Source of the DNA: a phage
Length of the DNA: 46,202 nt
Strand: one strand, 5' to 3'
Assembly (NCBI GenBank): GCA_025043315.1
Contig: GCA_025043315.1_4324.1
A program made the translations under genes and the position numbers. Shown piece after piece: positions 3,267 through 39,561 of the stretch. Within the stretch, counting starts at the first letter, position 1. Every line of letters begins with the position of its first letter. The notes beneath the pieces were generated by a model. That model saw nothing but the letters and a program-made list of their open reading frames with translations, had not been told where the DNA came from and ran no database searches.

Positions 3267-3299
3267 GTAATCAGCCCCGCGATAAACCAGATTGTTAGC

Positions 3300-3539
3300 T
3301 CACTCATAAAGACTATTCCCATTCTCGTCATGACCAACTCGACCTTTTAGATACCCTGCGACCCAAACAAATCGATCCCTACTGACAACTGTAGAAACAG
3401 GCTGCCAAATCTCAGTGATGATACCAGCAACCAACTTATCATTCTTGCGGTCCAGCTTGCTTAGTGACTCATACTTATCGTTGAGCCTTTTAGCCTGGCG
3501 CTTTACCGCATTGAACATCGCCTCATTTAGTCCGAACAT
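3300..3539 (-). CDS. hypothetical protein
   Basis: 79 aa ORF in tightly packed minus-strand early array. Confidence 0.45.
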   Translation of the reverse strand: MFGLNEAMFNAVKRQAKRLNDKYESLSKLDRKNDKLVAGIITEIWQPVSTVVSRDRFVWVAGYLKGRVGHDENGNSLYE

Positions 3540-3542
3540 TAT

Positions 3543-3731
3543 TTAAGCTCTCTTTGTATCAGCAAAATCAATCTCTTCGAAATCGTATTCATCAAATGCC
3601 CTCTTATCATTACATTTCATTGAATTTACGAATGATTCAGCGTCACACCTTTTAGGGAATGCGATGACGCTTATAGAATCTTCGTCACCTATATTATACC
3701 CATAAACTACATAAATCTTTGAATAACTCAT
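3543..3731 (-). CDS. hypothetical protein
   Basis: 62 aa ORF directly downstream of palindromic promoter module at 3762-3804. Confidence 0.5.
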   Translation of the reverse strand: MSYSKIYVVYGYNIGDEDSISVIAFPKRCDAESFVNSMKCNDKRAFDEYDFEEIDFADTKRA

Positions 3732-11630: not shown

Positions 11631-11660
11631 AAATATAGCCTCCATTAGGAGGCTTTTTTA
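11629..11660 (+). terminator. rho-independent terminator at convergent junction (AGCCTCC-ATTA-GGAGGCT plus T6)
   Basis: 7-bp perfect stem 11637-11654, T-tract 11655-11660. Confidence 0.7.
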
Positions 11661-12034
11661 CGTCTTAAGATTAAGGTCAGGAGAATCAGAACAAGCAACC
11701 CCATAGCTCCTGTTCCAACCCACGGAAGCGCTGATGATTCGTTATTGGTAATTTCAATCTTTTCGGCAGTGATTGTTGAGGCCTTAATCGAATTGTCAGC
11801 AGTCTTTTTTCCGCTCGAGCTATCCAGAGAGCCTACGCTAGAATCCTTAACGGAAGCGTCGCTGGAGCTGCTGGAATCAACCTTATTCGTTAACCCAACG
11901 CCAATCTTGTTGTTCTCAGCCCCGGCCTGAGCTGTAACTTCCGGCTTGCTTCCAATCAATCCAGTCAGTGCATCAGTTGCCGAACATCCAGATAAAGCCA
12001 CGCACATAACTAACGCTGCAATCCGCTTAAGCAT
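11645..12034 (-). CDS. unimolecular spanin (lipoprotein signal plus C-terminal TM)
   Basis: N-terminal MLKRIAALVMCVALSGC with lipobox LSGC; C-terminal hydrophobic helix then RRKKAS; last gene of lysis cassette. Confidence 0.65.
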   Translation of the reverse strand: MLKRIAALVMCVALSGCSATDALTGLIGSKPEVTAQAGAENNKIGVGLTNKVDSSSSSDASVKDSSVGSLDSSSGKKTADNSIKASTITAEKIEITNNESSALPWVGTGAMGLLVLILLTLILRRKKAS

Positions 12035-12495
12035 AACTTAATCTCCTCGTTCCTGCGATTCACCAACCCCTTAACGACAACCTTTTTGCCATTAACGGTA
12101 GCTTTATTCCAGAGGCCCAAAGCCTTGCAACCTTGCTCAATCTTACCCTGGTTAATTAACTTAACGGCAGTGGATTTCCTCATCGCTGAGCCGCCAACGT
12201 TATAGCTAAAGCTAATTAACGCCGCTCTTGTCTGCTGTGAAATTGGGTAAGTCACAGCATCCTGAACATGCTTACCATGAATCTGAATGTGCTTCTCAAG
12301 CAGGTTCCGGCACTCCCTGTTGCTGTAAGTCTTACCCCAAACTACGTCAGGACCAGTAATACCAGAACAAACCGTTGGGATTCCGGCAATGTCCATGTAT
12401 GGCTTGTTCTCCACACCCTCAACAAGCTCAATAAGCGGCGCTGCGATGTATATTGCCGCAGCTGTCGCAGCACCAACTACCAGCTTCTGCTTCAT
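12010..12495 (-). CDS. SAR endolysin (T4-lysozyme-like fold)
   Basis: N-terminal Gly/Ala-rich signal-anchor LVVGAATAAAIYIAAPL; catalytic triad pattern E-x8-D-x5-T in VEGVENKPYMDIAGIPT; AAGGAG SD. Confidence 0.8.
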   Translation of the reverse strand: MKQKLVVGAATAAAIYIAAPLIELVEGVENKPYMDIAGIPTVCSGITGPDVVWGKTYSNRECRNLLEKHIQIHGKHVQDAVTYPISQQTRAALISFSYNVGGSAMRKSTAVKLINQGKIEQGCKALGLWNKATVNGKKVVVKGLVNRRNEEIKLCLSGLQR

Positions 12496-12711
12496 TTACT
12501 TACTCCTTATTTTGATTGCTGTTTTAAGGTCTCCAGATTCAAGTGCGCGCCGAATAGCCTGGCTATCCTTATACTTCCAGTAAGCACCCCAAGCTCCAAA
12601 AATGATTAGAGCGATAAGACTGATTATTGCTATAGTCATTTGACCAGTTGCCGCGCCGGTTACCGCAGCGCCTCCAGTTGATGCCGTAGCGGCGTTAATT
12701 ACTTCCCTCAC
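12496..12711 (-). CDS. putative holin/pinholin (71 aa from GTG; track gives 97 aa from ATG at 12789)
   Basis: TM segment MTIAIISLIALIIFGAWGAYW and charged C-terminus; directly abuts endolysin; GTG at 12709-12711 has AAGGTGG SD, while ATG at 12789 abuts a terminator T-tract with no SD. Confidence 0.45.
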   Translation of the reverse strand: MREVINAATASTGGAAVTGAATGQMTIAIISLIALIIFGAWGAYWKYKDSQAIRRALESGDLKTAIKIRSK

Positions 12712-12789
12712 GCGATCCACCTTTATGTATTTGTCAATGTTTAAGTTAGTAAAAGAATGATACATTAGCACCGCTCGGAAAAGAAGCAT

Positions 12790-14940: not shown

Positions 14941-15155
14941 CTCACAATCTCCACATCCAATTTTGAAACACTAACAACAATACCCGCATCGTTTTTAACG
15001 ATGTATCTATCTGAGTCTGCGGAAATTTCAAGAACAAAATAGCTATTCCCGCGCTTTAGAAGGTACTCATCAATATCCATCCGTGGGGTGTTGTTTCTTG
15101 GCTTAAACGTAACAACGAACGGTCTATTATTAATCATAAAAAATCCTCCGGGCAA
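14937..15155 (-). CDS. hypothetical protein
   Basis: 72 aa ORF. Confidence 0.45.
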   Translation of the reverse strand: MPGGFFMINNRPFVVTFKPRNNTPRMDIDEYLLKRGNSYFVLEISADSDRYIVKNDAGIVVSVSKLDVEIVR

Positions 15156-15355
15156 TCTTTTTTCATTTCTGCAATGTCTGTAACCATACGGTCACGCCAT
15201 GTCTCGATATCAGTGCTCAGGTAGTCTTCTTCAAAGCTATAATCAAGGCAGTCAGCTAAAAACCATTTGTCTCCCTTGTATCCTGACTTATGCAGTTCCT
15301 GTACAGCTATAGCTTTGAAATAATCCCACTGGTCTTCAAACTTAAAAATTGCCAT
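15134..15355 (-). CDS. hypothetical acidic protein
   Basis: 73 aa, rich in D/E. Confidence 0.45.
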   Translation of the reverse strand: MAIFKFEDQWDYFKAIAVQELHKSGYKGDKWFLADCLDYSFEEDYLSTDIETWRDRMVTDIAEMKKDCPEDFL

Positions 15356-15606
15356 TATTCTAATACCTCGTCAAATTTTTCGCCAAATTCGTTTTTAACA
15401 GTTTCTAAGTCATCTTTGTATGTCGGGCTAACTTCAAATGCGTAAGACTTATCATCAACATCAATCAGTATATATCCAACGCTTGTTGTTATTGCCAGTT
15501 CATACATATAACCAGTCTTGCGTGATTCGTAGAATTTTCCAGTGTAGATAGTAGCCATTTTGTTTCTCTCTCTGTGTTTCGTTTCGATGGAGTAACTATA
15601 CCCCAC
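15355..15606 (-). CDS. hypothetical acidic protein
   Basis: 83 aa ORF downstream of promoter module. Confidence 0.5.
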   Translation of the reverse strand: MGYSYSIETKHRERNKMATIYTGKFYESRKTGYMYELAITTSVGYILIDVDDKSYAFEVSPTYKDDLETVKNEFGEKFDEVLE

Positions 15607-18146: not shown

Positions 18147-18632
18147 ATGAATGCAGTCGACAAGCGAACCATTAACGGTAATAACGGAACCATCCGCACT
18201 GAAGACAAAAAACAACGGAAACGACCTTCAGGTTACTACGTTTTGAAAGATGAGGTAAGGGCGGGTTTACGTGCGCGGCTGGAAATTGTTCTTGATTTCT
18301 TCGGCACAAAGGCAAATATGGCAAAGCAATTAAAGGTAACACCACAGGCTGTAGAGGAATGGTTTAAGCGCGGTATGATTTCTGCGCGCGGGGCTCAACT
18401 CTCACACAACTACTACAAGCGAACAGGGGAAGGCTTTCGCGCCACATTCTGCCGACCAGATCTGCAATTCGACGGAAACGGCAAGCCTCTTACTCTACGT
18501 TGCAAAAAGCGTCACATGCTGCGTGTTGTTACTGAGGCTGAATTAGCCACCAAGCCAGAGTGTCGATCATGGCGCAAGATTAAGGAAGAGAATCGCAAAA
18601 AGCGAGAAGCAGAGACAAATAGCACGAATTGA
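18147..18632 (+). CDS. HTH DNA-binding protein (Cro/YdaS-like), candidate regulator
   Basis: HTH-like TKANMAKQLKVTPQAVEEWFKRGMIS; basic N-terminus. Confidence 0.5.
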   Translation: MNAVDKRTINGNNGTIRTEDKKQRKRPSGYYVLKDEVRAGLRARLEIVLDFFGTKANMAKQLKVTPQAVEEWFKRGMISARGAQLSHNYYKRTGEGFRATFCRPDLQFDGNGKPLTLRCKKRHMLRVVTEAELATKPECRSWRKIKEENRKKREAETNSTN

Positions 18633-18682: not shown

Positions 18683-19213
18683 GTGTATATGAAAGTTAAT
18701 GATTTTGTTTATGTTGACGATGAATTTAAATTAAGATGGAAGAGTAGAGGTGTTGAATTCTTCAAAACAGAGAGGTCATCAAAGATCTGGAATAGTAGGT
18801 TTGCAAACAAGGAATGTGGATACATTAGGGATGACGGCTATCTTTCTTTTGAGTTCAATGGTCGAGCATACAGAAATCACAGGGTGATATGGGAAATTGT
18901 AACTGGTAATGAAATAGATGATAACATGGAGATTGACCATATAGATCATAATACAACAAACAACAATATTGAAAACCTTAGACTTGTTGACAGGAAAGAG
19001 AATTGCAAAAACCAATCCATGATGCCCCATAACTCGAGTGGCTTCACAGGTGTTCACTGGTGGTCAGCAAGAAACAAATGGAGAGCCCGCATCGAATGTG
19101 ATGGCAGAGTGAAAACAAAAACATTTGAAGACTTTAATGACGCTGTCGAGTGGAGAAAAGAAATGAACATAAATCTTGGCTTTCACAAGAATCATGGAGA
19201 TAAGAAAAAATGA
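18683..19213 (+). CDS. HNH homing endonuclease with AP2-like domain (second copy)
   Basis: IDHIDHNTTNNNIENLRLVDRKENCKN, SSGFTGVHW...KWRARI. Confidence 0.75.
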   Translation: MYMKVNDFVYVDDEFKLRWKSRGVEFFKTERSSKIWNSRFANKECGYIRDDGYLSFEFNGRAYRNHRVIWEIVTGNEIDDNMEIDHIDHNTTNNNIENLRLVDRKENCKNQSMMPHNSSGFTGVHWWSARNKWRARIECDGRVKTKTFEDFNDAVEWRKEMNINLGFHKNHGDKKK

Positions 19214-20181: not shown

Positions 20182-20196
20182 TAGCAATTCGTGCTA
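20182..20196. promoter_or_regulatory. palindrome TAGCAATTCGTGCTA without the usual -10/leader, upstream of tail fibre gene
   Basis: exact palindrome core; no TATAAT-like hexamer at the 22-bp position on either strand. Confidence 0.4.
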
Positions 20197-26247: not shown

Positions 26248-26673
26248 ATGCTTCTTGTTGGAATGCGTGAGTCAAAGGCAGTTCGCCTAGCGGTTCTTGA
26301 TAAGCTTAAGCAGATGCAGGCCACCATTAAAAAACAAGCAGAAGTAATCAGCCAGATGGTAAGTATTGATGAACTAAAAGAGGCGAGAATGATGCTTGGT
26401 GTAGCTAATGCGCAGAATGCACATCTTAGCCAGCGCATTGTTGCAGAGCAAAGAATAAATGAGATCTTACTCATGGATAAGAATACCGATGAAAAGCTCG
26501 ACATGCTGGCTTGTGAGGCTCGCCAGTGCTGGGTTAGCCGCTCTGATGAGATGGAGGAAAGATTTAAGTATGAAGTGCAATGCTTCGCTCTTAAAGAAAA
26601 GACGGACGCACTGACCGGATTAATTGAGAATGAGCTAGGTATTGATATTAAGCTGTTGCTCGAAAAGAAATAG
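26248..26673 (+). CDS. C-terminal part of the same Rha-like reading frame (141 aa), in frame with 26005..26244 across TAG-CAA
   Basis: same frame as upstream ORF, separated only by TAG at 26242-26244 plus CAA. Confidence 0.45.
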
Positions 26674-26713
26674 CACTAATTGCTAAACACTGGTCGCAAG
26701 GATGCGATACTAT
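26671..26713 (+). promoter_or_regulatory. palindromic promoter module (TAGCACTAATTGCTA 26671-26685; TACTAT 26708-26713)
   Basis: 22-bp spacer; leader TACTCCATCGAAACGAAACGAAC. Confidence 0.6.
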
Positions 26714-26753
26714 TACTCCATCGAAACGAAACGAACTTACTAAGGAACATAAA

Positions 26754-26999
26754 ATGACTAACTTAATCAAATCAGTAATCATCGCCGCAGCAGTAATCAT
26801 GGCAGTTGGTTGTTCTTCCGGTCCTCGCCCGGATGGTTGGTGTGCAACCCAAGCAAACGGCGTATGCGTGGCTAAGTGGGAAGGCGGTGTAGTTGTTCCG
26901 GCTGGTGAGCTTGATGTTCGCTACGCCGGAATTGAAAGCAAGGCCGGAGGCGGTTACGGTGGGTCAGTTGCAGATCATGGTTCTAAGGAGTGGAAATAA
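26754..26999 (+). CDS. small lipoprotein (candidate superinfection-exclusion protein)
   Basis: signal peptide plus lipobox MAVGC; 81 aa. Confidence 0.7.
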
Positions 27000-27961
27000 T
27001 GCCACAGGGTATTTTAATCGACCTTAATGATGGAAGGCCAGCTATGGAGATTACTGCGGGGCTAAGAGCACCCGCCGTGACCGGCTCAATAAACACGAAT
27101 GGACTTTCAACCCCAGCAAGTTCGTGGGATTTTGGATTGACAATGTCTCCTGGCTCTACGGCTTTCTGCCTACCAACGAAAGCAGTCCACGTTGACACTT
27201 ACGATGTTATACCCGAAGTTTATTACATGAACGGGTTTCAAAAGGTAAATGACGGAACTGGCAGGATAACGCTTAGCAACTTCAATGGTGCCAATGGTCG
27301 AATAATTGACTTTGCGGGTAATTGTTTTGAAATTCTACCAGCATCATCTTCATCAAGCCCAGGGATACTCGTTGAGAACTCAACTGATTTCCTTGCTATA
27401 TCAAGCAACTCGAGACTAATGTCAGCAGCATGGGTTGGAGGCATACAGGTTAACGGGGCGGCATCGCTACCAGTTAGCGGCATACCATTCGGCAAGTGGG
27501 ATAATCCAAACGTATCACTTGAATCAGATGGATCAACAATATGGTGTAGGGATATAACCTACGGAGGTACAGATGATGTTGCGGCAAGTACTTATGTTCA
27601 GCTGGTGATATTCAGAAATGAACCCCCACCAGCCGGACCAGGACTAACAATGTCGAATAGTTCTGGTCAGATTGTTTTTTCCAGCGTTAGACGACCATTT
27701 GTTCTTGGTGGATTCATTCAGATCAACAATGGATACCAGTCAATAAATGGTGGATTCTTCCCGCTGCTCAGATGCGGCGCTACGACTAGAGTTACTGGAG
27801 GGTATAACAACTTAAGATACAAGGGGGTTTGCATGTCTGGTGGTAACGTTAGAGCAGTACCAGGTACTGTAATTGGTAACTACTCAACTCAGACTGGCGC
27901 TCAGTTCCCTTTCGACACAAATATATCAATGGCACTTCCATTTATTCCAAACTTCTACTAA
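26998..27961 (+). CDS. hypothetical protein, possibly fibre/receptor-binding-like, translationally coupled to the lipoprotein
   Basis: ATG overlaps lipoprotein stop (TAATG) with AAGGAG SD; Gly/Ser/Asn-rich 320 aa. Confidence 0.45.
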
Positions 27962-32829: not shown

Positions 32830-33195
32830 TTATTCAAAATAAACCTCAAAATCTATAAATACTGAAGCACCATTGGATTTAAGCTCCTCAGCCTCAATCA
32901 GCTTTTCATCAAATAATGACTTAGTAACATCAATCCAATTCATTCTATATTTCATCTTTCCATCATGCGTATCACTTAAAAGATTGAATCCCACATCATT
33001 AAGTTCAACTCGTGAAAAGTTGTAATAACTATCATGGAGCATGCTGGTAAATTTTACAGTTTTACCATCATCATCCCTAACCTGATAGTAACGACCTGAG
33101 TCATCAACATCACAGGCGTAAGCTTCACCAACAGAAAATAAACCTTCGCATTCTTCTTTGTCTTTCTTGTATCCGTTAAATTTAATGTAGAACAT
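32830..33195 (-). CDS. hypothetical protein inserted between L and K (moron candidate)
   Basis: own promoter module upstream and hairpin cassette downstream; start at ATG 33193-33195 with GAGGAG SD. Confidence 0.5.
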   Translation of the reverse strand: MFYIKFNGYKKDKEECEGLFSVGEAYACDVDDSGRYYQVRDDDGKTVKFTSMLHDSYYNFSRVELNDVGFNLLSDTHDGKMKYRMNWIDVTKSLFDEKLIEAEELKSNGASVFIDFEVYFE

Positions 33196-34442: not shown

Positions 34443-37418
34443 TTAGTTGAATCCACGAAGGTAAGCATACGCCCTGCCGCCCTGCTGGAAAGACTGAGCA
34501 ATCTCTTCCGCTACGATTGCCTTGACGCCGTTTTGCAATGCTTTAGCTTGCTCTGGGTCGCTACCCACCCCCGAGTTTACGTTAACAGTGATTCCGCTAA
34601 CATTAACATCCGTTCCACCAGAAACCAAACCGCCACTTGCATAACCAGATGGACCACCAACCGCGCCGCCGTTTGCATATCCCTTCATTAGAGCGTAAAG
34701 GTTTTTTACGCCAATTCTGCTAGTCGCTTCTTTTGTGAATACGAACTCACCGCGGTGTACCGTTCCTGCTGGCTGATACTTACCACCATCACCAGTATAG
34801 CCGCCGCCAGCAAAACCTATGGCAGATGCAATTGAACCAATAGCACCACCTGTGCCACCGAAGCTACTTAAGCTAGACTCGATAGCCTTGACAACAAGAA
34901 GCTGAGTTGCAATCTTGGCGATCTGCTTAAGAATGTTAACCGTGAATTCCCTGAAATTAGTCTCGCCAGTTGTTACAAGGTTTGTAATCTGGTCGGTAAT
35001 ACCTTCAAAGACCGTTGTGGTTAAACTTCCAGCAATTGAGAATGCATCCGTCGCGCTCTCAGCCCAATTAGCAAAGGATTGATTCACGCCAGCGAGCCAG
35101 TTTTCACGTAGCGCATCCTCCTGAGCATAAAAGTTACGTCTTGCTTCGAGAAGTTGCGCGAAATCTACGTCATCAAGAGAACCACCAGCATTAACCTGAT
35201 TGGACTGAAGAGCCTGAATCTCTTTGGCTCTCTGCTGCTCCCGAGAAGACAGGCCAGCACCCAAATTAATATTGCTTGCCTCATTGTTAATCTGAAGAAT
35301 CTTCTTGCGGTTATCTTCAGCTAACTTATTGGCACGCTCCTGCAAAACAATCTGATCGCCTAACTCAGCTTTCTGCCTTGCGAGTGCAAGAACTTTATCC
35401 TTCTCAATGAGAAGTCTTGCTTGCTCTTTGGTAATTGAGCCATCAATTTGCCTCTGCTCAAGAATCTGGAATTTAGCCTCTTCCTGAAGGTACTGCTTGC
35501 GCTCATTACTTATTACTGCGCCAATATCCCTGTTTTCCTGAAGTACCTTTAGTTGAGCCTGAAGTGCCAGCACGCCAGATTCGTAACCAATTGTAAGGTC
35601 TCTTTGCTCTTTAGCCCTACCATTTTCTTCTTTCCTGCTCTTCTTGATCGCATCAAGTTCATCCTGAAGCGCCTTCTTCCTTTTTGCAAACTCCTCATCA
35701 GTACCTGACTGCTCATTGGAATTCTGATTTTCCCTGCGTGTAACGTAACCAAGTTCTCCTTCTCTGATTCTGGCATCTCTCTCCCTGATAGACTTCTCTA
35801 GCTCAAGGTTTTGCTTCTTGGCGGCATCGATAATCTTCTGCTGACTCTTGATTACATCATCACCGACACCATCAAGGCCTGGGATATTCTGCAATGCCTG
35901 AGTTGCACTAATTACAAACTCACCAATCAGCGCGTCACCTTGGTTAATGAAGACCTTAATCTGTTCAATTGTCCCGGCTATTACATCAACAAACAGGTTT
36001 AGAGCCCCAACCGTTCTGCGACTAATTGCATCCCATACATCAGATATGTACTTCCTGAAGTCACTCCAGGCCAATTCAAGAGGAGTAAGCTGGGCTGCAA
36101 TATCGTTAAGGTTTGCTTCCTGTGATTTGCTAAATATATCAATGGCAGCAGTTACGGCTTCAACCTCACCCCTAGTCTCTCTCAATCTTTCAATTGTTGT
36201 TAACTGCCCCTGTGTAAGGAAGTTAAACCTCTTGTCTAAATCAGCAAGTCCTTGAATTGGGTCGCTCGCAATCTGGTTATAGTAACCAGTAATCTCCTTC
36301 GCATCCCTACCTGTCAACTGCGCCCATCTGGCGGTTGATTTGGTAATCTTGTCAATCTGAGTCAGCGTAAGGTTCCCTTGCTCAATAAGGCTTGTTGCGA
36401 TGCTAGTCACAAGTCCTCTTGTAGCACCAGTAGCGTCAGAAACAGAGCTAACCAACTCTCTAACCTGCGAGATTGATGCGATTGTAGAGTTGTTGGAGAA
36501 TGCAATCGCAGAATTTAATGCTCTGAATTCACTCTCTGCCTGAGCGGCACCGATACCGAGAGCAACAAGTGCCCCACCCAAAACGCCAACAGCAACATTG
36601 AATGGATTTAAGGCTGCGAGCGCGAATCTAAAGGTGTTACCAATACCTCCAAATGCATCCTTAATTTGTCCGCCTTGCTGAATTGCAATAAGCCAAATCG
36701 GAATGCCGCCAGCAAGTGATGTCCCAATATCTGTAATCTGCGCTGGCAATTGAGAGATTGCAGCCTTGTATTGACCTGCGCTTAATCCTGATTTCTGAAA
36801 AGCCTTACTCTGAGCAATTAACTGGGTGTTTGCCTTCTTTGATGCATCGGCGATTCTGTCAATAATAGGCGCCGCCTGAGAACTTACGCCAAGCTGAGCA
36901 GCTTGTAGCTTAAGATACTCCTCACGCGTCAATGTTGCCGCTTGAGCCTGACGCTCAAGTGATGCAATGAACCTATCCGCTTCAACCTTTGCCTTTGCCT
37001 TATCCTTTGCAGCTTGCGCTGCCGCTCTACCCTCTTCAGTTAGCGCCGCACGTGAACGAGCAAGTTTTGCGTTCTGCGTTTCAAGAGCCTCACCTAAGCG
37101 GAAAAACTCCTCATCAGGAACAACGCCAGCTGCGAATGCCTTATCAAGACCTACTGCCGCCTCCTGAAGTTTACGGAATTTTGCAGCCGTTGGGTCGATA
37201 GCTGTTTGCAACTTAGCCAGAGATGCTTTCTGCTCAGCCAGTGCGCGAGCCGTATCTCTAGCCTGGGTTTTAGCAACCTGCTCGGCATTTACGAACTCAC
37301 TAATCCCAGAGGCAGCCTGTTGGTTGGCCTGTCTGAACTTTTGCAGGGATTGCGTGCCCCTATCGACTTGCGAGACGTCTACGGCTAGTGTGATTCCGGC
37401 TAATTCATTTGTTGCCAT
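34443..37418 (-). CDS. tail tape measure protein
   Basis: 991 aa, long Ala/Gln/Glu-rich coiled-coil region, Gly-rich C-terminus; follows G/GT chaperones. Confidence 0.85.
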
Positions 37419-37453: not shown

Positions 37454-37765
37454 TTATTTTTTTCTCAGGTTATCCATCATCTCGAGAGCCTTAGCTTCAA
37501 GGATGCGTAAATCACTGAGCACCAATTCTTCTTCTGAGACATTATACACTCTAAAGAGGAAATTTAGCACGTTGTAATCTAACCCTGTAGCTCCGTTAGC
37601 TCCGACTCTCCACTGTGTCGCCATTGAACAATAAATGTCCCACGCCTTCATCATGTTTTCGTCGAAGTGTAAAACTTCAGGCTCTTCATCTTCGTAATCA
37701 GAGCGGCGCATCCCAATAGCTTCCAGTTCGGCATCAGTTGGCTCTGACTGGTACTGTAGATACAC
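37454..37765 (-). CDS. tail assembly chaperone, T-like frame, expressed as G-T fusion by -1 frameshift
   Basis: in the -1 frame relative to 37774..38088; frame open back to the slippery site. Confidence 0.55.
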   Translation of the reverse strand: MYLQYQSEPTDAELEAIGMRRSDYEDEEPEVLHFDENMMKAWDIYCSMATQWRVGANGATGLDYNVLNFLFRVYNVSEEELVLSDLRILEAKALEMMDNLRKK

Positions 37766-37773
37766 CGCCCTCT

Positions 37774-38088
37774 TTAGTTTTTTACACGCTGACCAGCCAG
37801 TGCTTGCATATAGGCGGTAGTTAGCGCAACGGTTGAAGCCGGGAACAGGTCGGAGAACTCATTAACGTTATCCTCGTTGTATTCCTCTTCCAAATCCCAA
37901 TCAGAGGCAATTGCCATGATAAGCTCTTTGGTGCTCAAATCTTCCTTGCTAAGCAATTCCTGCAGCTCTGAAGTCTTCTTGTGCTTAACTGTAAAGATAA
38001 CCTCTACATCCTGGTCGTTAGCCAGCTTGAATTTTACAGGCAGCTTAAAGTCAGGGAGTGCTGCCAGTGAAAGTTTGAACTTTGCCAT
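37774..38088 (-). CDS. tail assembly chaperone, G-like
   Basis: 104 aa acidic protein ending ...AGQRVKN; slippery heptamer A-AAA-AAC at 37777-37783. Confidence 0.6.
   Translation of the reverse strand: MAKFKLSLAALPDFKLPVKFKLANDQDVEVIFTVKHKKTSELQELLSKEDLSTKELIMAIASDWDLEEEYNEDNVNEFSDLFPASTVALTTAYMQALAGQRVKN
37777..37783 (-). other. candidate programmed -1 ribosomal frameshift site (A AAA AAC)
   Basis: heptamer in X-XXY-YYZ phase at the last two codons of the G-like ORF. Confidence 0.55.
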
Positions 38089-38127
38089 CTTAGTTAATCC
38101 TCTTATTGTTTGTGAGTATGTATTCTA

Positions 38128-38376
38128 TTACTTAGTGTTTTCTTTTGCAATCTTAGTAGCTGAGTCCTTACAAACCTCTTTGCCATATTTCATGATTTGA
38201 TCAACTTTGCCACCCACAAGTTCCTGGCATGCTCGCTCAGCTTTAGCAAACTCAACAGTATATTTGTTTGCCTTGCTGTTTGCATCGGCATCGCCAGTTG
38301 GGTTGACAATCTGAACTACTGCATAAAAAGCAACCAGAACCGCAGTAAGCTTGATGATGTTTTTAACGTTATTCAT
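38128..38376 (-). CDS. small secreted or membrane-anchored protein (moron candidate)
   Basis: N-terminal hydrophobic signal IIKLTAVLVAFYAVVQI; own promoter module upstream. Confidence 0.5.
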   Translation of the reverse strand: MNNVKNIIKLTAVLVAFYAVVQIVNPTGDADANSKANKYTVEFAKAERACQELVGGKVDQIMKYGKEVCKDSATKIAKENTK

Positions 38377-38409
38377 TTAATTAATCTCTCATTTCGTTTC
38401 GATGAGTTA

Positions 38410-38452
38410 ACTATACAGGAAGATTGGATTAACGCTTTAGCAAAAAGTGCTA
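38410..38452 (-). promoter_or_regulatory. palindromic promoter module (TAGCAAAAAGTGCTA 38438-38452; TATAGT 38410-38415)
   Basis: 22-bp spacer; leader TAACTCATCGAAACGAAATGAGAGA. Confidence 0.55.
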
Positions 38453-38455
38453 TGC

Positions 38456-38482
38456 AATAAAAAAACCCTCCGAAGAGGGTTT
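38456..38482 (-). terminator. strong rho-independent terminator after major tail gene (AACCCTC-CGAA-GAGGGTT plus T-run)
   Basis: 7-bp stem 38464-38481; A-run 38457-38463. Confidence 0.7.
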
Positions 38483-38487
38483 GTGTT

Positions 38488-39144
38488 TTAAACTTCAGCT
38501 GCCACAGAGGACAGTCTACCACGAATGGATACAGCGATGGATACCGTTTCGATTTCGTTAACACCAATGGTAGGGGTGTCGTTGAAAGCGATAGTGCCGG
38601 ACTGCAAACGCATTTCCTGAGCGCGAGGTACAAACAGACGAATGGCAACAACCTGGCCTGACTCATCGTAGTTACGCAGAACCGGATAAACCGGGTTAGT
38701 GTACTCATGAGCGAAGGTGAAGGTATTCGTTACCGCAGACTTGTAAGTTGGAATCTGCTGTTCGCGGTCATCAGAAAGGCACTGGAAGCTAACAAACTGC
38801 TGTTCGCCGCCGTCAGTAGATACATCCTGAACGCACGGAACTTCGAACCAGGAAGTAATCTTAACAACTTCACCAGTTAAGCCGGCCGGGAACTTGGTGG
38901 TGTTGGAGGTATCAATACCTTCAACTGTTACCGAAGTGCCAGAAACTTCAGTTACTCGAACCTGCTTGTCACTAAGAAGCGTGGAGCTGGAGGCGGTAAA
39001 CAGAAGGTAGTCACCCTTAGCCAGGCCGGATGCGCTAGCTACGGTTAAAACTGGTTTAGGTGCGTTAGAGATTGCAGTTACATCAATTGTGTTACCGCGA
39101 GAGCCTTCTACGAAGACCTGCGTGCCATTGCTGAGATGAGCCAT
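38488..39144 (-). CDS. putative major tail protein
   Basis: 218 aa ORF immediately upstream of chaperones and followed by a strong terminator. Confidence 0.6.
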   Translation of the reverse strand: MAHLSNGTQVFVEGSRGNTIDVTAISNAPKPVLTVASASGLAKGDYLLFTASSSTLLSDKQVRVTEVSGTSVTVEGIDTSNTTKFPAGLTGEVVKITSWFEVPCVQDVSTDGGEQQFVSFQCLSDDREQQIPTYKSAVTNTFTFAHEYTNPVYPVLRNYDESGQVVAIRLFVPRAQEMRLQSGTIAFNDTPTIGVNEIETVSIAVSIRGRLSSVAAEV

Positions 39145-39159
39145 GTATTTTTCCTTTTG

Positions 39160-39561
39160 TTAGTCTAGACGAACATAAAAATGAACCGGGATAAACCACC
39201 CAGACTTGGATTTGATAACCGGGTCAACAACTCCAGACTCATAAATGGTCCCGATGTCAAGCATTGTACCATCAACGATAGATTCTGCCAATTGATTAGC
39301 GATTTGTCTCGGCTTGTCAATGCCAGTCCCAGGGCTGAAGAAAACAGAAATCTGCACCATGCCTACGTAGTATTTGCACTTCCTGCTTAATCCGTATGTC
39401 ACAGTATCAACTTCCGTGTAGTCATACTTTAGCCAGATAGAGCCATCCGCTGGAGGAGTGAAAGCAACGTTTTCCCAAGATACTGGATATCTGACTGGGA
39501 AGCTGCTCACCAGCAAATCATTAACATATTTCCTGGCAGCTATAGACAATTCATAATGCAC
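39160..39561 (-). CDS. putative tail completion / neck protein
   Basis: 133 aa ORF between head-tail joining genes and major tail; call positional. Confidence 0.4.
   Translation of the reverse strand: MHYELSIAARKYVNDLLVSSFPVRYPVSWENVAFTPPADGSIWLKYDYTEVDTVTYGLSRKCKYYVGMVQISVFFSPGTGIDKPRQIANQLAESIVDGTMLDIGTIYESGVVDPVIKSKSGWFIPVHFYVRLD

What the first reader, a model, noticed from the sequence alone, without database searches (positions are those of the whole stretch)
38128..38452. Second moron: small secreted or membrane-anchored protein between major tail and chaperone genes
An 82-aa ORF with an N-terminal hydrophobic signal and a Lys-rich mature part lies between the major tail gene and the G/GT chaperones. 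It has its own palindromic module (38410-38452) just after the major tail terminator. A secreted protein on an early/middle-type promoter inside the tail operon suggests a host-envelope function such as superinfection exclusion.
Basis: partly seen in the sequence, partly recalled or inferred. Interest (0 to 1): 0.55.

Follow-up and report, generated by a model that had tools for sequence, protein, structure and literature searches.

The report
Exported small protein cassette in tail operon
A T1-like (Rtp-like) coliphage carries, between its tail-tube and tail-chaperone genes, a swappable cassette with its own phage-type promoter and an orphan gene for a tiny protein exported to the host envelope; it is a real accessory gene of a familiar kind, and its function is untested.

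Summary
The window is a Drexlerviridae (Braunvirinae, Rtp/Guelphvirus-like) phage. On the minus strand the order is: major tail gene, terminator, 15-bp palindrome, 22 nt, TATAGT, conserved leader, an 82-aa ORF (38128-38376), then the chaperone's own promoter and G/T. The ORF is a real gene. It occurs in 82 phage records, always in this slot, with dN/dS of 0.05-0.22 against most relatives. It has an n/h/c signal-peptide layout, and a published SignalP run called a signal peptide in a 95% identical homologue. The mature part is about 50 aa, basic, helical, with two invariant Cys. It is an orphan: no Pfam, PDB, PADLOC or remote HMMER relatives. The palindrome is the known Drexlerviridae repeat. 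It occurs 12 times in the window and forms 14 promoter modules. These modules drive non-morphogenetic genes and the Rtp45-type exclusion lipoprotein. Close relatives show an empty slot (SU57) or an unrelated lipoprotein (rtp34) behind the same promoter, so the cassette is moron-like, though it has no terminator. Export to the envelope is well supported. Superinfection exclusion is plausible but untested, and ORF82 alleles track neither the receptor-binding protein nor the tape measure. It is a new member of a known kind and of moderate interest.

The parts
38488..39144 (-). Major tail (tube) protein gene; upstream flank of the slot.
   Evidence: PF08813 at 4e-68 and phrog_584.
38463..38482 (-). 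Intrinsic terminator hairpin of the major tail gene (AAACCCTCTTCGGAGGGTTT plus a T-run).
   Evidence: Terminator scan. Conserved in all relatives aligned.
38438..38452 (-). 15-bp palindrome TAGCACTTTTTGCTA. It is a copy of the Drexlerviridae repeat aaATAGCACnnnTTGnTAAAA and the presumed binding site of the phage Cro-like regulator. If transcription starts about 7 nt after the -10 hexamer, it would lie at about -49 to -35.
   Evidence: 12 copies in the window against 0.01 expected. Conserved in divergent relatives while the spacer sequence diverges. The repeat is described in TLS, T1, Rtp and Rogue1 (PMC11447400).
38410..38415 (-). -10 hexamer TATAGT, 22 nt downstream of the palindrome. There is no usable -35 hexamer (2 of 6 matches) and no TGn motif.
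   Evidence: The same 22-nt spacing holds in 13 of 14 modules.
38377..38409 (-). Conserved leader TAACTCATCGAAACGAAATGAGAGATTAATTAA, including the Shine-Dalgarno GAGAG (38390-38386).
   Evidence: The ATCGAAACGA motif is shared by most modules. Conserved across relatives.
38128..38376 (-). ORF82, 82 aa. Residues 1-9 form a basic n-region, 10-24 an h-region and 25-32 a c-region (NPTGDADA). The likely mature protein (residues 33-82) is Lys-rich and helical, with invariant C50 and C69 and an invariant C-terminal Lys.
   Evidence: phrog_22925, E = 3e-54, function unknown. Found in 82 phage records. dN/dS 0.05-0.22. Alignments A3 and A4. Composition and cleavage-site analysis. AlphaFold2 models. SignalP call in the MSK homologue.
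38122..38150 (-). The chaperone gene's own sigma-70-type promoter (TTGCAA, 17 nt, TAGAAT). It overlaps the 3' end and stop codon of ORF82 and marks the right border of the inserted cassette.
   Evidence: Promoter scan. Annotated as a promoter in EC3a. Its -10 and leader are homologous to the TATAAT...CTCACAAACAATAAGAGGATTA of the empty SU57 slot.
37454..38088 (-). Tail assembly chaperone genes G (37774-38088) and T (37454-37765); downstream flank. No terminator separates them from ORF82. The next terminator is at 37455-37438.
   Evidence: PF08748 and DUF1799; terminator scan.
18147..18632 (+). Candidate regulator that reads the palindrome: a 161-aa protein with a Cro-like helix-turn-helix, homologous to T1 ST23 and (from recall) Rtp52.
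   Evidence: phrog_2856 'transcriptional regulator', E = 1e-83. Sub-threshold P22_Cro match. Annotated as a transcriptional regulator in T1, JeanPiccard and ACG-M12.
26671..26999 (+). For comparison: the same promoter module (26671-26685 plus -10) drives the Rtp45-type superinfection-exclusion lipoprotein (26754-26999, lipobox AVGC) and the receptor-binding protein gene (26990-27961).
   Evidence: PF24052 'Phage lipoprotein family', E = 6e-38. Modules mapped. The Rtp45-LptDE structure is in bioRxiv 10.1101/2025.07.07.663478.

Best explanation
ORF82 with its promoter (38128-38452) is an exchangeable accessory cassette. It sits in a cargo slot between the major-tail terminator and the chaperone promoter of Rtp-like Drexlerviridae.

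**Transcription (inferred).** It starts about 7 nt after TATAGT. The promoter has no -35 hexamer. It would depend on the phage's Cro-like regulator bound to the palindrome centred near -42, as a class II or lambda-cI-type activator would be. This places ORF82 in the same regulon as the replication and recombination genes and the Rtp45-type exclusion lipoprotein. Transcripts read on into G/T.

**Export.** The 82-aa product goes through the Sec pathway. It is probably cleaved around A32|N33. That yields a roughly 5.5-kDa basic, helical periplasmic protein whose two invariant cysteines would be oxidised there. If it is not cleaved, it is tethered to the inner membrane with its C-terminus in the periplasm.

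**Function (inferred).** It most likely acts on a conserved host envelope component during infection, blocking a post-adsorption step of secondary infection. This would be exclusion at the periplasm or inner-membrane stage, complementing the receptor-masking lipoprotein.

**Confidence by layer.** Anatomy and mobility of the cassette: about 0.9. Export: about 0.8. Regulator-dependent promoter: about 0.6. Exclusion function: about 0.3-0.35.
For: **Real gene.** It is found in 82 phage records, always in this slot. dN/dS is 0.05-0.22 against most relatives.

**Cassette and slot.**
- Only 8 of 77 Drexlerviridae loci have an insert here. The others have 27-129 bp after excluding three partial alignments, mostly a terminator followed by a -10 element.
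- SU57 has flanks 92% identical and an empty 82-bp slot. Its TATAAT and leader match the sequence directly after the ORF82 stop codon.
- Rtp, MM01, RobRod40 and AugustePiccard carry the unrelated 128-aa lipoprotein rtp34; in Rtp it sits behind the same module.
- Rao1 and CY1 add a 46-aa hydrophobic ORF.
- Cassette GC is 37.6% against 44.4% for the window.
- ORF82 is 55% identical in ACG-M12 while the flanking genes are 93-99% identical.

**Promoter.**
- There are 14 modules with 22-23 nt spacing and 4-6 of 6 matches in the -10 hexamer. The best -35 match is only 2-4 of 6.
- Each ends 26-40 nt from a Shine-Dalgarno sequence and ATG; 25860 is the exception, where the first SD+ATG found lies 102 nt away.
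- Phylogenetic footprinting supports it: the palindrome, -10 and leader are conserved while the spacer sequence diverges at constant length.
- The TLS authors report the repeat about 76 nt upstream of start codons. Here the distance is 15+22+6+33 = 76.

**Export.** The n/h/c layout and AXA-type sites are present. SignalP 4.1 was positive only for MSK_000011 and the Cor-like lipoprotein in phage MSK. C50 and C69 are invariant across alleles that are 55-60% identical.

**Envelope theme.** Every alternative cargo of the slot is a lipoprotein or membrane peptide. Known exclusion proteins Rtp45 and Llp are also small, disulfide-bonded periplasmic proteins. Some siphovirus subgroups need periplasmic or inner-membrane host factors (DcrB, SdaC, MetQ) after adsorption.
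Against: - There is no functional or expression data for any family member.
- ORF82 has no sequence or fold relative among known exclusion proteins. A PDB profile search gave 0 hits at E <= 10, Foldseek gave 0, and PADLOC and Pfam gave none.
- The AlphaFold2 models are uninformative: pLDDT 65 for the full length and a single long helix for the mature part.
- ORF82 alleles co-vary with neither the receptor-binding protein and exclusion lipoprotein nor the tape measure. Linkage gives no hint of a cognate virion partner.
- The phage already encodes a receptor-masking exclusion lipoprotein.
- The promoter class also drives the receptor-binding protein and an ORF whose family is labelled 'virion structural'. 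It is therefore not strictly non-structural.
- The 15-residue hydrophobic stretch and the long c-region leave cleavage versus membrane anchoring undecided.
- The activator model rests on geometry and on the recalled Rtp52 proposal. The TLS authors also consider stoperator and UP-element readings.
Confidence: 0.4

Rival explanations
1. Lysis-timing or envelope-integrity factor. ORF82 would be a signal-anchored periplasmic helical protein that modulates the holin, SAR endolysin or spanin step. Models are the T4 RI antiholin or a miniature Rz-type i-spanin. Alternatively it would guard against lysis from without.
For: The topology and size resemble RI and Rz as I recall them: an N-terminal hydrophobic segment, then a charged helical periplasmic domain with conserved cysteines. 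The hydrophobic stretch is short and Ala-rich, as in SAR-type domains. Rao1 and CY1 place a 46-aa hydrophobic, apparently two-TM, holin-sized peptide directly upstream in the same transcription unit.
Against: ORF82 is not in or near the lysis cassette (holin, endolysin and u-spanin lie at about 11645-12789). It has no similarity to RI, Rz or any solved structure. The phage has a unimolecular spanin and needs no i-spanin. SU57, Rtp and most Drexlerviridae do without it.
Confidence: 0.15
2. An envelope-acting accessory protein unrelated to exclusion or lysis. Examples: an inhibitor of a periplasmic host protease, stress sensor or defence component, or a basic helix that binds peptidoglycan or LPS and alters the envelope. 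The latter could include an Lpp-like tether using the invariant C-terminal Lys.
For: ORF82 is predicted to be exported, is basic (pI 9.2) and has an invariant C-terminal Lys across all alleles. Its alleles assort independently of the virion proteins, which points to a host rather than a phage target. It is a fast-evolving orphan family.
Against: No homology supports any specific target. The C-terminus (NTK/ESK/STK) lacks the YRK context that I recall as important for Lpp cross-linking. Nothing separates this reading from the best explanation except the missing exclusion phenotype.
Confidence: 0.2
3. ORF82 is a tail-assembly or virion component, placed in the tail operon because it works there. 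The hydrophobic N-terminus would be a structural segment, not an export signal.
For: It lies between the tail tube and chaperone genes and is co-transcribed with G/T, since no terminator follows it. The other module-driven insert in the tail region (32830-33195) belongs to a PHROG family labelled 'virion structural protein'.
Against: It is absent from SU57, Rtp and 69 of 77 Drexlerviridae loci, which build the same tails. In Rtp it is replaced by a lipoprotein. A signal peptide is predicted. It is never annotated as structural in any of the records examined. Its alleles are uncoupled from the flanking tail genes.
Confidence: 0.05
4. The ORF's protein is irrelevant. The cassette would matter only as an extra promoter and leader that boosts or retimes G/T chaperone expression.
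For: Transcripts from the module must read into G/T. In T1-group phages the same repeat, in reverse orientation, sits in the leader of the chaperone gene, so this junction is a regulatory hotspot.
Against: Purifying selection acts on the protein (dN/dS 0.05-0.22). The Cys, Gly and aromatic positions are invariant across alleles 55% identical. The chaperone keeps its own promoter downstream.
Confidence: 0.03

Closest known systems
Phage morons in lambdoid tail operons, notably the HK97 gp15 exclusion moron next to the tape-measure gene (recalled: Juhala 2000; Cumby 2012)
   Same: An extra gene with its own promoter, inserted between two tail genes that are adjacent in relatives. It is AT-richer than its flanks and encodes a small envelope-targeted protein.
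   Different: The host phage is virulent, so the gene cannot be expressed from a prophage. There is no own terminator. The promoter is the phage's own regulator-linked class rather than a host-type constitutive promoter. ORF82 shows no co-variation with the tape measure, and I did not compare it directly with the gp15 sequence.
Receptor-masking exclusion lipoproteins: T1/phi80 Cor, T5 Llp, Rtp45 (bioRxiv 10.1101/2025.07.07.663478)
   Same: A small (about 5-6 kDa mature) periplasm-facing protein with conserved cysteines. In this window it is driven by the same promoter module as the Rtp45 homologue.
   Different: There is no lipobox (first Cys at residue 50) and no sequence match. ORF82 is not adjacent to the receptor-binding gene, and its alleles are uncoupled from the receptor-binding and exclusion-lipoprotein alleles.
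Periplasmic post-adsorption exclusion proteins: T4 Spackle, P1 Sim (recalled)
   Same: A signal-peptide-bearing small periplasmic protein of a phage, expressed with non-late genes. This is the functional class I think most likely.
   Different: The PDB profile search found no sequence similarity. The Foldseek search used only a single-helix model and is uninformative. No tail lysozyme target is evident. The function is untested.
Drexlerviridae 21-nt repeat aaATAGCACnnnTTGnTAAAA (TLS paper PMC11447400), also described as the inverted repeats proposed as Rtp52 sites (Wietzorrek 2006, recalled)
   Same: Same consensus, same orientation with transcription, and the same ~76-nt distance to the start codon.
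   Different: Three details shown here are not mentioned in the TLS paper's section on transcriptional elements, the only published description I could read: the fixed 22-nt spacing to a good -10 hexamer, the absence of a -35 hexamer, and the conserved leader. These support a promoter (activator-site) reading over the 'stoperator' idea for forward copies. Reverse copies downstream of late -10 elements look operator-like.
T4 middle promoters (MotA box plus sigma-70 -10, no -35) (recalled)
   Same: A good -10 hexamer combined with a phage-specific upstream box in place of a -35 hexamer. The box even shares a TTGCT core.
   Different: The box here is a palindrome 22 nt from the -10 hexamer (centre about -42), not a box at -30. 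No MotA or AsiA homologue was looked for or seen. The candidate regulator is Cro-like.

Membership tests
Moron (independent transcription unit inserted between conserved phage genes) | Present between two genes that are adjacent in related phages. | tested here: met
   SU57 has an empty 82-bp slot with flanks 92% identical. Sixty-nine of 77 Drexlerviridae loci have no insert.
Moron (independent transcription unit inserted between conserved phage genes) | Own promoter. | tested here: inconclusive
   A conserved palindrome, 22-nt spacer, TATAGT and leader sit upstream of the ORF. This is one of 14 such modules. No transcript data exist.
Moron (independent transcription unit inserted between conserved phage genes) | Own terminator. 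| tested here: not met
   No terminator lies between the ORF82 stop codon and the chaperone gene. The next one is at 37455-37438.
Moron (independent transcription unit inserted between conserved phage genes) | Nucleotide composition differs from the flanks. | tested here: met
   The cassette has 37.6% GC. The major tail gene has 49.6%, the chaperone gene 45.1% and the window 44.4%.
Sec-type cleavable signal peptide | Basic n-region, hydrophobic h-region of 7-15 residues, polar c-region with small residues at -3 and -1. | tested here: met
   K5 and K9 in the n-region; h-region at residues 10-24; NPTGDADA with ADA|N. SignalP 4.1 was positive for the 95% identical MSK_000011. Actual cleavage has not been shown, and the site is imperfectly conserved (ETA in ACG-M12).
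Cor/Llp/Rtp45 exclusion lipoproteins | Lipobox with lipid-modified Cys after the signal peptide. | tested here: not met
   There is no Cys before residue 50 and no L-x-x-C motif.
Cor/Llp/Rtp45 exclusion lipoproteins | Sequence or family membership (such as PF24052), and adjacency to the receptor-binding gene. | tested here: not met
   ORF82 has no Pfam hit, whereas the true homologue at 26754-26999 hits PF24052 at 6e-38. ORF82 lies about 10 kb from the receptor-binding locus.
Periplasmic exclusion proteins with solved structures (Spackle and similar) | Detectable sequence or fold similarity. | tested here: not met
   The profile search against PDB sequences gave 0 hits at E <= 10. Foldseek against the PDB gave 0 hits, but the model is a single helix and so weakly informative.
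Any superinfection-exclusion protein | Expression reduces infection by the same or related phages. | not testable with these tools
   Requires plasmid expression and phage challenge.
Drexlerviridae regulator-linked promoter repeat (TLS 'DR'; Rtp52 inverted repeat) | Consensus ATAGCACnnnTTGnTAAA, oriented with transcription, about 76 nt before the start codon. | tested here: met
   Exact match at 38452-38438, 76 nt before the ATG.
Virion structural or tail assembly protein | Conserved among phages that build the same tail, and detected in virions. | tested here: not met
   Absent from SU57, Rtp, T1 and most of the family. No virion mass spectrometry is available for a phage carrying it.

The most novel reading that the evidence does not exclude
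The junction between the major tail and chaperone genes of Rtp-like Drexlerviridae would be a dedicated exchange port. Virulent phages would swap envelope-acting cargo there (ORF82, the rtp34 lipoprotein, a 46-aa membrane peptide) under one activator-dependent promoter. ORF82 would be a new, non-lipoprotein class of periplasmic exclusion factor. It would block a conserved post-adsorption host factor for DNA entry (of the DcrB/SdaC/MetQ kind) rather than the outer-membrane receptor.
Probability: 0.2. Interest if true: 0.6.

Novelty: new member of a known kind. Interest (0 to 1): 0.4.

Why it matters
T1-like phages are common laboratory and fermentation contaminants and candidates for phage therapy. 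Their only characterised exclusion system is the receptor-masking lipoprotein (Cor/Rtp45).

A second exported factor, independently assorting and sitting in a hot-swappable slot, would point to a further layer of phage-phage competition at the periplasm or inner membrane. It could also identify the still unknown host factor these phages use to cross the envelope.

The cassette gives a clean natural test set: ORF82, rtp34 and empty-slot phages with nearly identical tails. It also offers a compact model promoter for working out what the long-noticed Drexlerviridae repeat and its Cro-like regulator do.

Tried and rejected
- **Family and structure libraries.** Pfam, PADLOC and PDB sequence libraries gave nothing for ORF82. 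NCBIfam gave only a 0.059 chance hit to ribosomal protein L22. PHROGs gave only its own family of unknown function.
- **Remote homology.** A word-indexed search of 5.8 billion proteins found 39 clusters, all on phage-like contigs of 44-49 kb or fragments. An exhaustive HMMER profile search of 1.84 billion representatives found only its own cluster, plus one spurious hit to the hydrophobic segment.
- **Structure prediction.** The full-length AlphaFold2 model has pLDDT 65. The mature-domain model is one long helix, and Foldseek against the PDB found nothing. I did not run further fold searches because a lone helix cannot give meaningful matches.
- **Host genomes and plasmids.** There is no copy in 5,426 complete E. 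coli genomes or in PLSDB plasmids, so it is not a prophage or host gene.
- **Rfam.** The region gave only sub-threshold terminator-like noise.
- **Allele linkage.** I tested whether ORF82 alleles track the tape measure, receptor-binding protein or exclusion lipoprotein. They do not. I therefore rejected a 'cognate partner by linkage' argument.
- **rtp34.** It is unrelated to ORF82 and is itself an orphan.
- **Transcriptomics.** The one paper combining Drexlerviridae with RNA-seq had sequenced a T5-like phage.
- **Wietzorrek 2006 Rtp paper.** It is not held in the library. The Rtp52 statement is therefore from memory.
- **Sigma-70 -35 reading.** I rejected TTGCTA as a -35 hexamer because the spacer is 22 nt.
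Full report
**1. What the window is.** The region is 92-94% identical at the DNA level to Escherichia phages vB_EcoS_FP, CEB_EC3a, BEK6 and many others. EC3a is classified in Drexlerviridae, Braunvirinae, Guelphvirus. The morphogenesis genes run on the minus strand in this order:
- tail terminator protein gene, 39160-39561;
- major tail protein, 38488-39144 (PF08813, 4e-68);
- the ORF in question, 38128-38376;
- tail assembly chaperone G, 37774-38088 (PF08748), and T, 37454-37765 (DUF1799);
- tape measure, 34443-37418.

**2.
- A hairpin plus T-run terminator follows the major tail gene at 38482-38463.
- Reading the minus strand, the next elements are ATTGCA, then TAGCACTTTTTGCTA (38452-38438), 22 nt, TATAGT (38415-38410), the leader TAACTCATCGAAACGAAATGAGAGATTAATTAA, and the ATG at 38376.
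- The 82-aa product is MNNVKNIIK, then LTAVLVAFYAVVQIV, then NPTGDADA, then a 50-residue part with 10 Lys and pI 9.2.

**3. The ORF is a real gene.**
- Length alone is not evidence, because the window holds 156 ORFs of at least 60 aa.
- tblastn finds the protein in 82 phage records at 54-98% identity. In every locus I fetched it lies between the major tail and chaperone genes.
- Forty-three of those 82 records are near-identical Veterinaerplatzvirus isolates, so the effective sample is smaller.
- Pairwise dN/dS against the window is 0.05-0.10 for close alleles, 0.18-0.22 for the 57-80% alleles and 0.41 for ACG-M12.
- Invariant positions across all alleles include Y39, F43, C50, G55, K57, Q60, G65, C69, I76, K78 and the C-terminal K82.

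**4. It is an orphan.**
- PHROGs places it in phrog_22925, function unknown. Pfam, PADLOC and PDB sequences give nothing, and NCBIfam gives only a chance-level hit.
- The word-indexed search of 5.8 billion proteins returned 39 clusters, all on phage-like contigs.
- An exhaustive HMMER profile search of 1.84 billion representatives returned only its own cluster, plus a spurious hit to the hydrophobic segment.
- It is absent from 5,426 complete E. coli genomes and from PLSDB plasmids.
- AlphaFold2 gives pLDDT 65 for the full length: helix 2-24, a linker, then helix 30-81. The mature part comes out as a single long helix with pLDDT 85. Foldseek against the PDB finds nothing.
- The invariant glycines at 55 and 65 make me doubt that the helix is really continuous. 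That is an inference.

**5. It is an inserted, exchangeable cassette.** I fetched 79 Drexlerviridae loci around the major tail gene and measured the gap to the chaperone gene in the 77 where both genes were found.
- Only eight have a 400-516 bp gap: those with a major tail protein at least 89% identical to the window's, including Rtp.
- The rest have 27-129 bp, mostly a terminator followed directly by a -10 element. The three apparent exceptions are partial alignments.
- T1 itself has no ORF there.
- A chimeric query (major tail 3' end plus chaperone 5' end) against the phage collection found vB_EcoD_SU57. Its flanks are 92% identical and its slot is only 82 bp: terminator, ATTGCTAccaacctgcTATAATgcaatCTCACAAACAATAAGAGGATTAaaaaaATG.
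- The window has the same CTCACAAACAATAAGAGGATTA leader preceded by TAGAAT immediately after the ORF82 stop codon. With TTGCAA 17 nt upstream, this forms a sigma-70-type promoter, which is annotated as a promoter in EC3a.
- The cassette therefore sits between the major-tail terminator and the chaperone's own promoter.
- Rtp carries an unrelated 128-aa lipoprotein, rtp34 (MKAIIAIMATLLLAGC...), behind the same palindrome, -10 and leader. MM01, RobRod40 and AugustePiccard also carry rtp34, and in MM01 it sits in the same slot.
- Rao1 and CY1 add a conserved 46-aa hydrophobic ORF between the promoter and the ORF82 homologue.
- Cassette GC is 37.6% against 44.4% for the window and 45-50% for the flanks.
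- ORF82 diverges far faster than its neighbours. In ACG-M12 the major tail protein is 93%, G 96%, T 99-100% and the tape measure 93% identical, but ORF82 only 55%.

These are the marks of a moron-like accessory locus. Two departures from the classical definition remain: the cassette has no terminator of its own, so transcripts continue into G/T, and the phage is virulent.

**6. The 'palindromic module' is a repeated promoter and is already known as a repeat.**
- TAGCA-N5-TGCTA occurs 12 times in the window against 0.01 expected.
- With the slightly relaxed pattern TAGCACnnnTTGnTA there are 16 hits. Fourteen of them share one architecture:
  - 22 nt (once 23) to a hexamer matching TATAAT at 5-6 of 6 positions (once 4);
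  - no -35 hexamer, with the best match only 2-4 of 6 at 16-18 nt;
  - no consistent TGn motif;
  - a conserved TAnnnCATCGAAACGA-type leader in most of them;
  - a Shine-Dalgarno sequence and ATG 26-40 nt after the -10 hexamer; 25860 is the exception, where the first SD+ATG found lies 102 nt away.
- The genes served are small left-arm genes, two HNH endonucleases, a helicase, a 117-aa protein of unknown function that lies upstream of that helicase, the Erf-type recombinase, a small gene block at 15355-15558, the Rtp45-type lipoprotein plus the receptor-binding protein, a 121-aa ORF at 32830-33195, and ORF82.
- Within the 18-kb morphogenesis region, only 33266 and 38452 carry the module.
- Upstream of ORF82 the palindrome, -10 and leader are conserved in relatives whose spacer sequence has diverged at constant length. 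This is a phylogenetic footprint.
- The TLS re-annotation paper reports the same 21-nt repeat, aaATAGCACnnnTTGnTAAAA, at 21 sites. It lies in the direction of transcription, about 76 nt before start codons, and also occurs in T1, Rtp and Rogue1. Its function is undecided (PMC11447400). Here the distance is 15+22+6+33 = 76 nt.
- From memory, the Rtp genome paper (Wietzorrek et al., J Bacteriol 2006) proposed these inverted repeats as sites for the putative regulator Rtp52. I could not read it.
- The window's homologue is 18147-18632 (phrog_2856, 1e-83; sub-threshold Cro-type helix-turn-helix).
- If transcription starts about 7 nt after the -10 hexamer, the palindrome spans -49 to -35 with its centre near -42. 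That is the geometry of class II and lambda-cI-type activation. This is an inference.
- In passing: the same element occurs in reverse orientation just downstream of extended -10 elements in front of late genes. Examples are the T1 chaperone and major head genes and the window's lateral tail fibre at 20182. There it would act as an operator.

**7. Export.**
- The N-terminus has the n/h/c layout of a Sec signal peptide, with (-3,-1) sites after A30, A32 and S34. ADA|N is the best site. A32 is invariant in the 13-sequence alignment, though not in the 36-sequence one.
- The hydrophobic stretch is only 15 residues and contains a Gln. A flat Hessa sum is +0.3 kcal/mol for 15 residues and +3.9 for 19. 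This fits a signal peptide better than a stable transmembrane anchor, but an uncleaved signal anchor is not excluded.
- Independently, the phage MSK paper ran SignalP 4.1 and TMHMM on a genome whose gene after the major tail protein (MSK_000010) is MSK_000011. That gene is the ORF82 homologue, 95% identical.
- Only MSK_000011 and the Cor/Rtp45-like MSK_000046 were called as signal-peptide proteins (PMC8421802). The gene-number correspondence is my deduction from gene order (major tail = 10, tape measure = 14).
- Two invariant cysteines fit an oxidising compartment.

**8. What it does.** Nothing is known experimentally for any member of the family.
- The facts that bear on function are these:
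  - predicted export;
  - a small, basic, helical, two-Cys mature protein;
  - a promoter class shared with the replication genes and with the known exclusion lipoprotein;
  - alternative cargo in the slot that is always envelope-targeted;
  - dispensability for virion assembly;
  - fast evolution under constraint;
  - alleles independent of virion proteins.
- On the last point, ACG-M12 has a receptor-binding protein 97% and an exclusion lipoprotein 90% identical, but ORF82 only 55%. JeanPiccard has those two at 40% and 70%, but ORF82 at 94%.
- The canonical exclusion function is already present. Rtp45 binds the periplasmic face of LptDE (bioRxiv 10.1101/2025.07.07.663478), and its homologue lies at 26754-26999 (PF24052).
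- A recent screen reports that some siphovirus subgroups need periplasmic or inner-membrane proteins (DcrB, SdaC, MetQ) after adsorption (bioRxiv 10.64898/2026.04.02.716166).
- My best reading is a second, post-adsorption exclusion or protection factor aimed at a conserved host envelope component, at about 0.3-0.35.
- The rivals are a lysis-timing role of the RI or Rz type (0.15), another envelope-acting role (0.2), a virion or assembly role (0.05), and a purely regulatory cassette (0.03).

**9. Verdict.**
- Its interpretation is partly supported: cassette, export and promoter class yes; timing and exclusion unproven.
- The kind of thing is familiar, a moron-like accessory gene for a small envelope protein in a tail operon. 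The repeat is already in the literature, and the protein family is an uncharacterised orphan.
- The natural trio of ORF82, rtp34 and empty-slot phages makes the question directly testable.
- Interest is moderate.

Noticed in passing
The palindrome at 33266-33252 and TATGAT precede a 121-aa ORF (32830-33195, GC 33.6%) between two minor tail genes. It is absent from JeanPiccard and 61% identical in ACG-M12, where it is annotated as similar to phiEB49 gp37. Its family, phrog_14592, is labelled 'virion structural protein'.
   Followed up: partly
window 20182-20196; L004 (T1) 18835-18849 and about 15071-15085: The same repeat occurs in reverse orientation just downstream of extended -10 elements and just upstream of the ribosome-binding sites of late genes. 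Examples are the window's lateral tail fibre and the T1 chaperone and major head genes. It is conserved across the T1 group. This looks like an operator in late-gene leaders, which would make the regulator dual-purpose.
   Followed up: partly
window 18147-18632 (+): A 161-aa protein, homologous to the gene annotated as a transcriptional regulator in T1 (ST23), with a sub-threshold Cro-like helix-turn-helix match. It lies between the helicase and primase genes and is the likely reader of the repeat. A module at 18620 overlaps its 3' end and drives an HNH gene and the primase.
   Followed up: partly
L020 (Rtp) 3268-3654; also MM01, RobRod40, AugustePiccard: rtp34 is a 128-aa lipoprotein (lipobox LLAGC) that occupies the same slot as ORF82, in Rtp behind the same promoter. 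It is also an orphan: no Pfam family above threshold (only a sub-threshold lipoprotein-attachment-site match), no PHROG and no meaningful PDB match. It occurs in only 5 close records.
   Followed up: partly
L005 (Rao1) about 1250-1390; L091 (CY1) 717-857: An unannotated, conserved 46-aa hydrophobic ORF (MILIGMLTAFFYYATGLTFWVSLGAAIG.YFVSALLALIV.ALRNR, apparently two transmembrane segments) lies between the module and the ORF82 homologue in these phages.
   Followed up: no
window 38131-38133 (residue K82) and homologues: The C-terminal Lys is invariant in all alleles (NTK, ESK, STK) while its neighbours vary. The mature protein is an Lpp-sized single helix. A peptidoglycan-linking or Lpp-mimicking role is a low-probability idea.
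   Followed up: no
window 26671-27961 (+): The Rtp45-type exclusion lipoprotein (26754-26999) and the Rtp44-type receptor-binding protein (26990-27961; phrog_1265, labelled 'membrane protein') form one module-driven unit that converges on the J gene. The receptor-binding protein is 97% identical in ACG-M12 but only 40% in JeanPiccard, so the receptor locus has been swapped.
   Followed up: partly
phage collection records MG065688.1 and one 'Pseudomonas' record: A record labelled 'Campylobacter phage A110b' and one record whose organism name begins with 'Pseudomonas' match this coliphage region. A110b is 92% identical at the DNA level. These are probably mislabelled or contaminant records.
   Followed up: no
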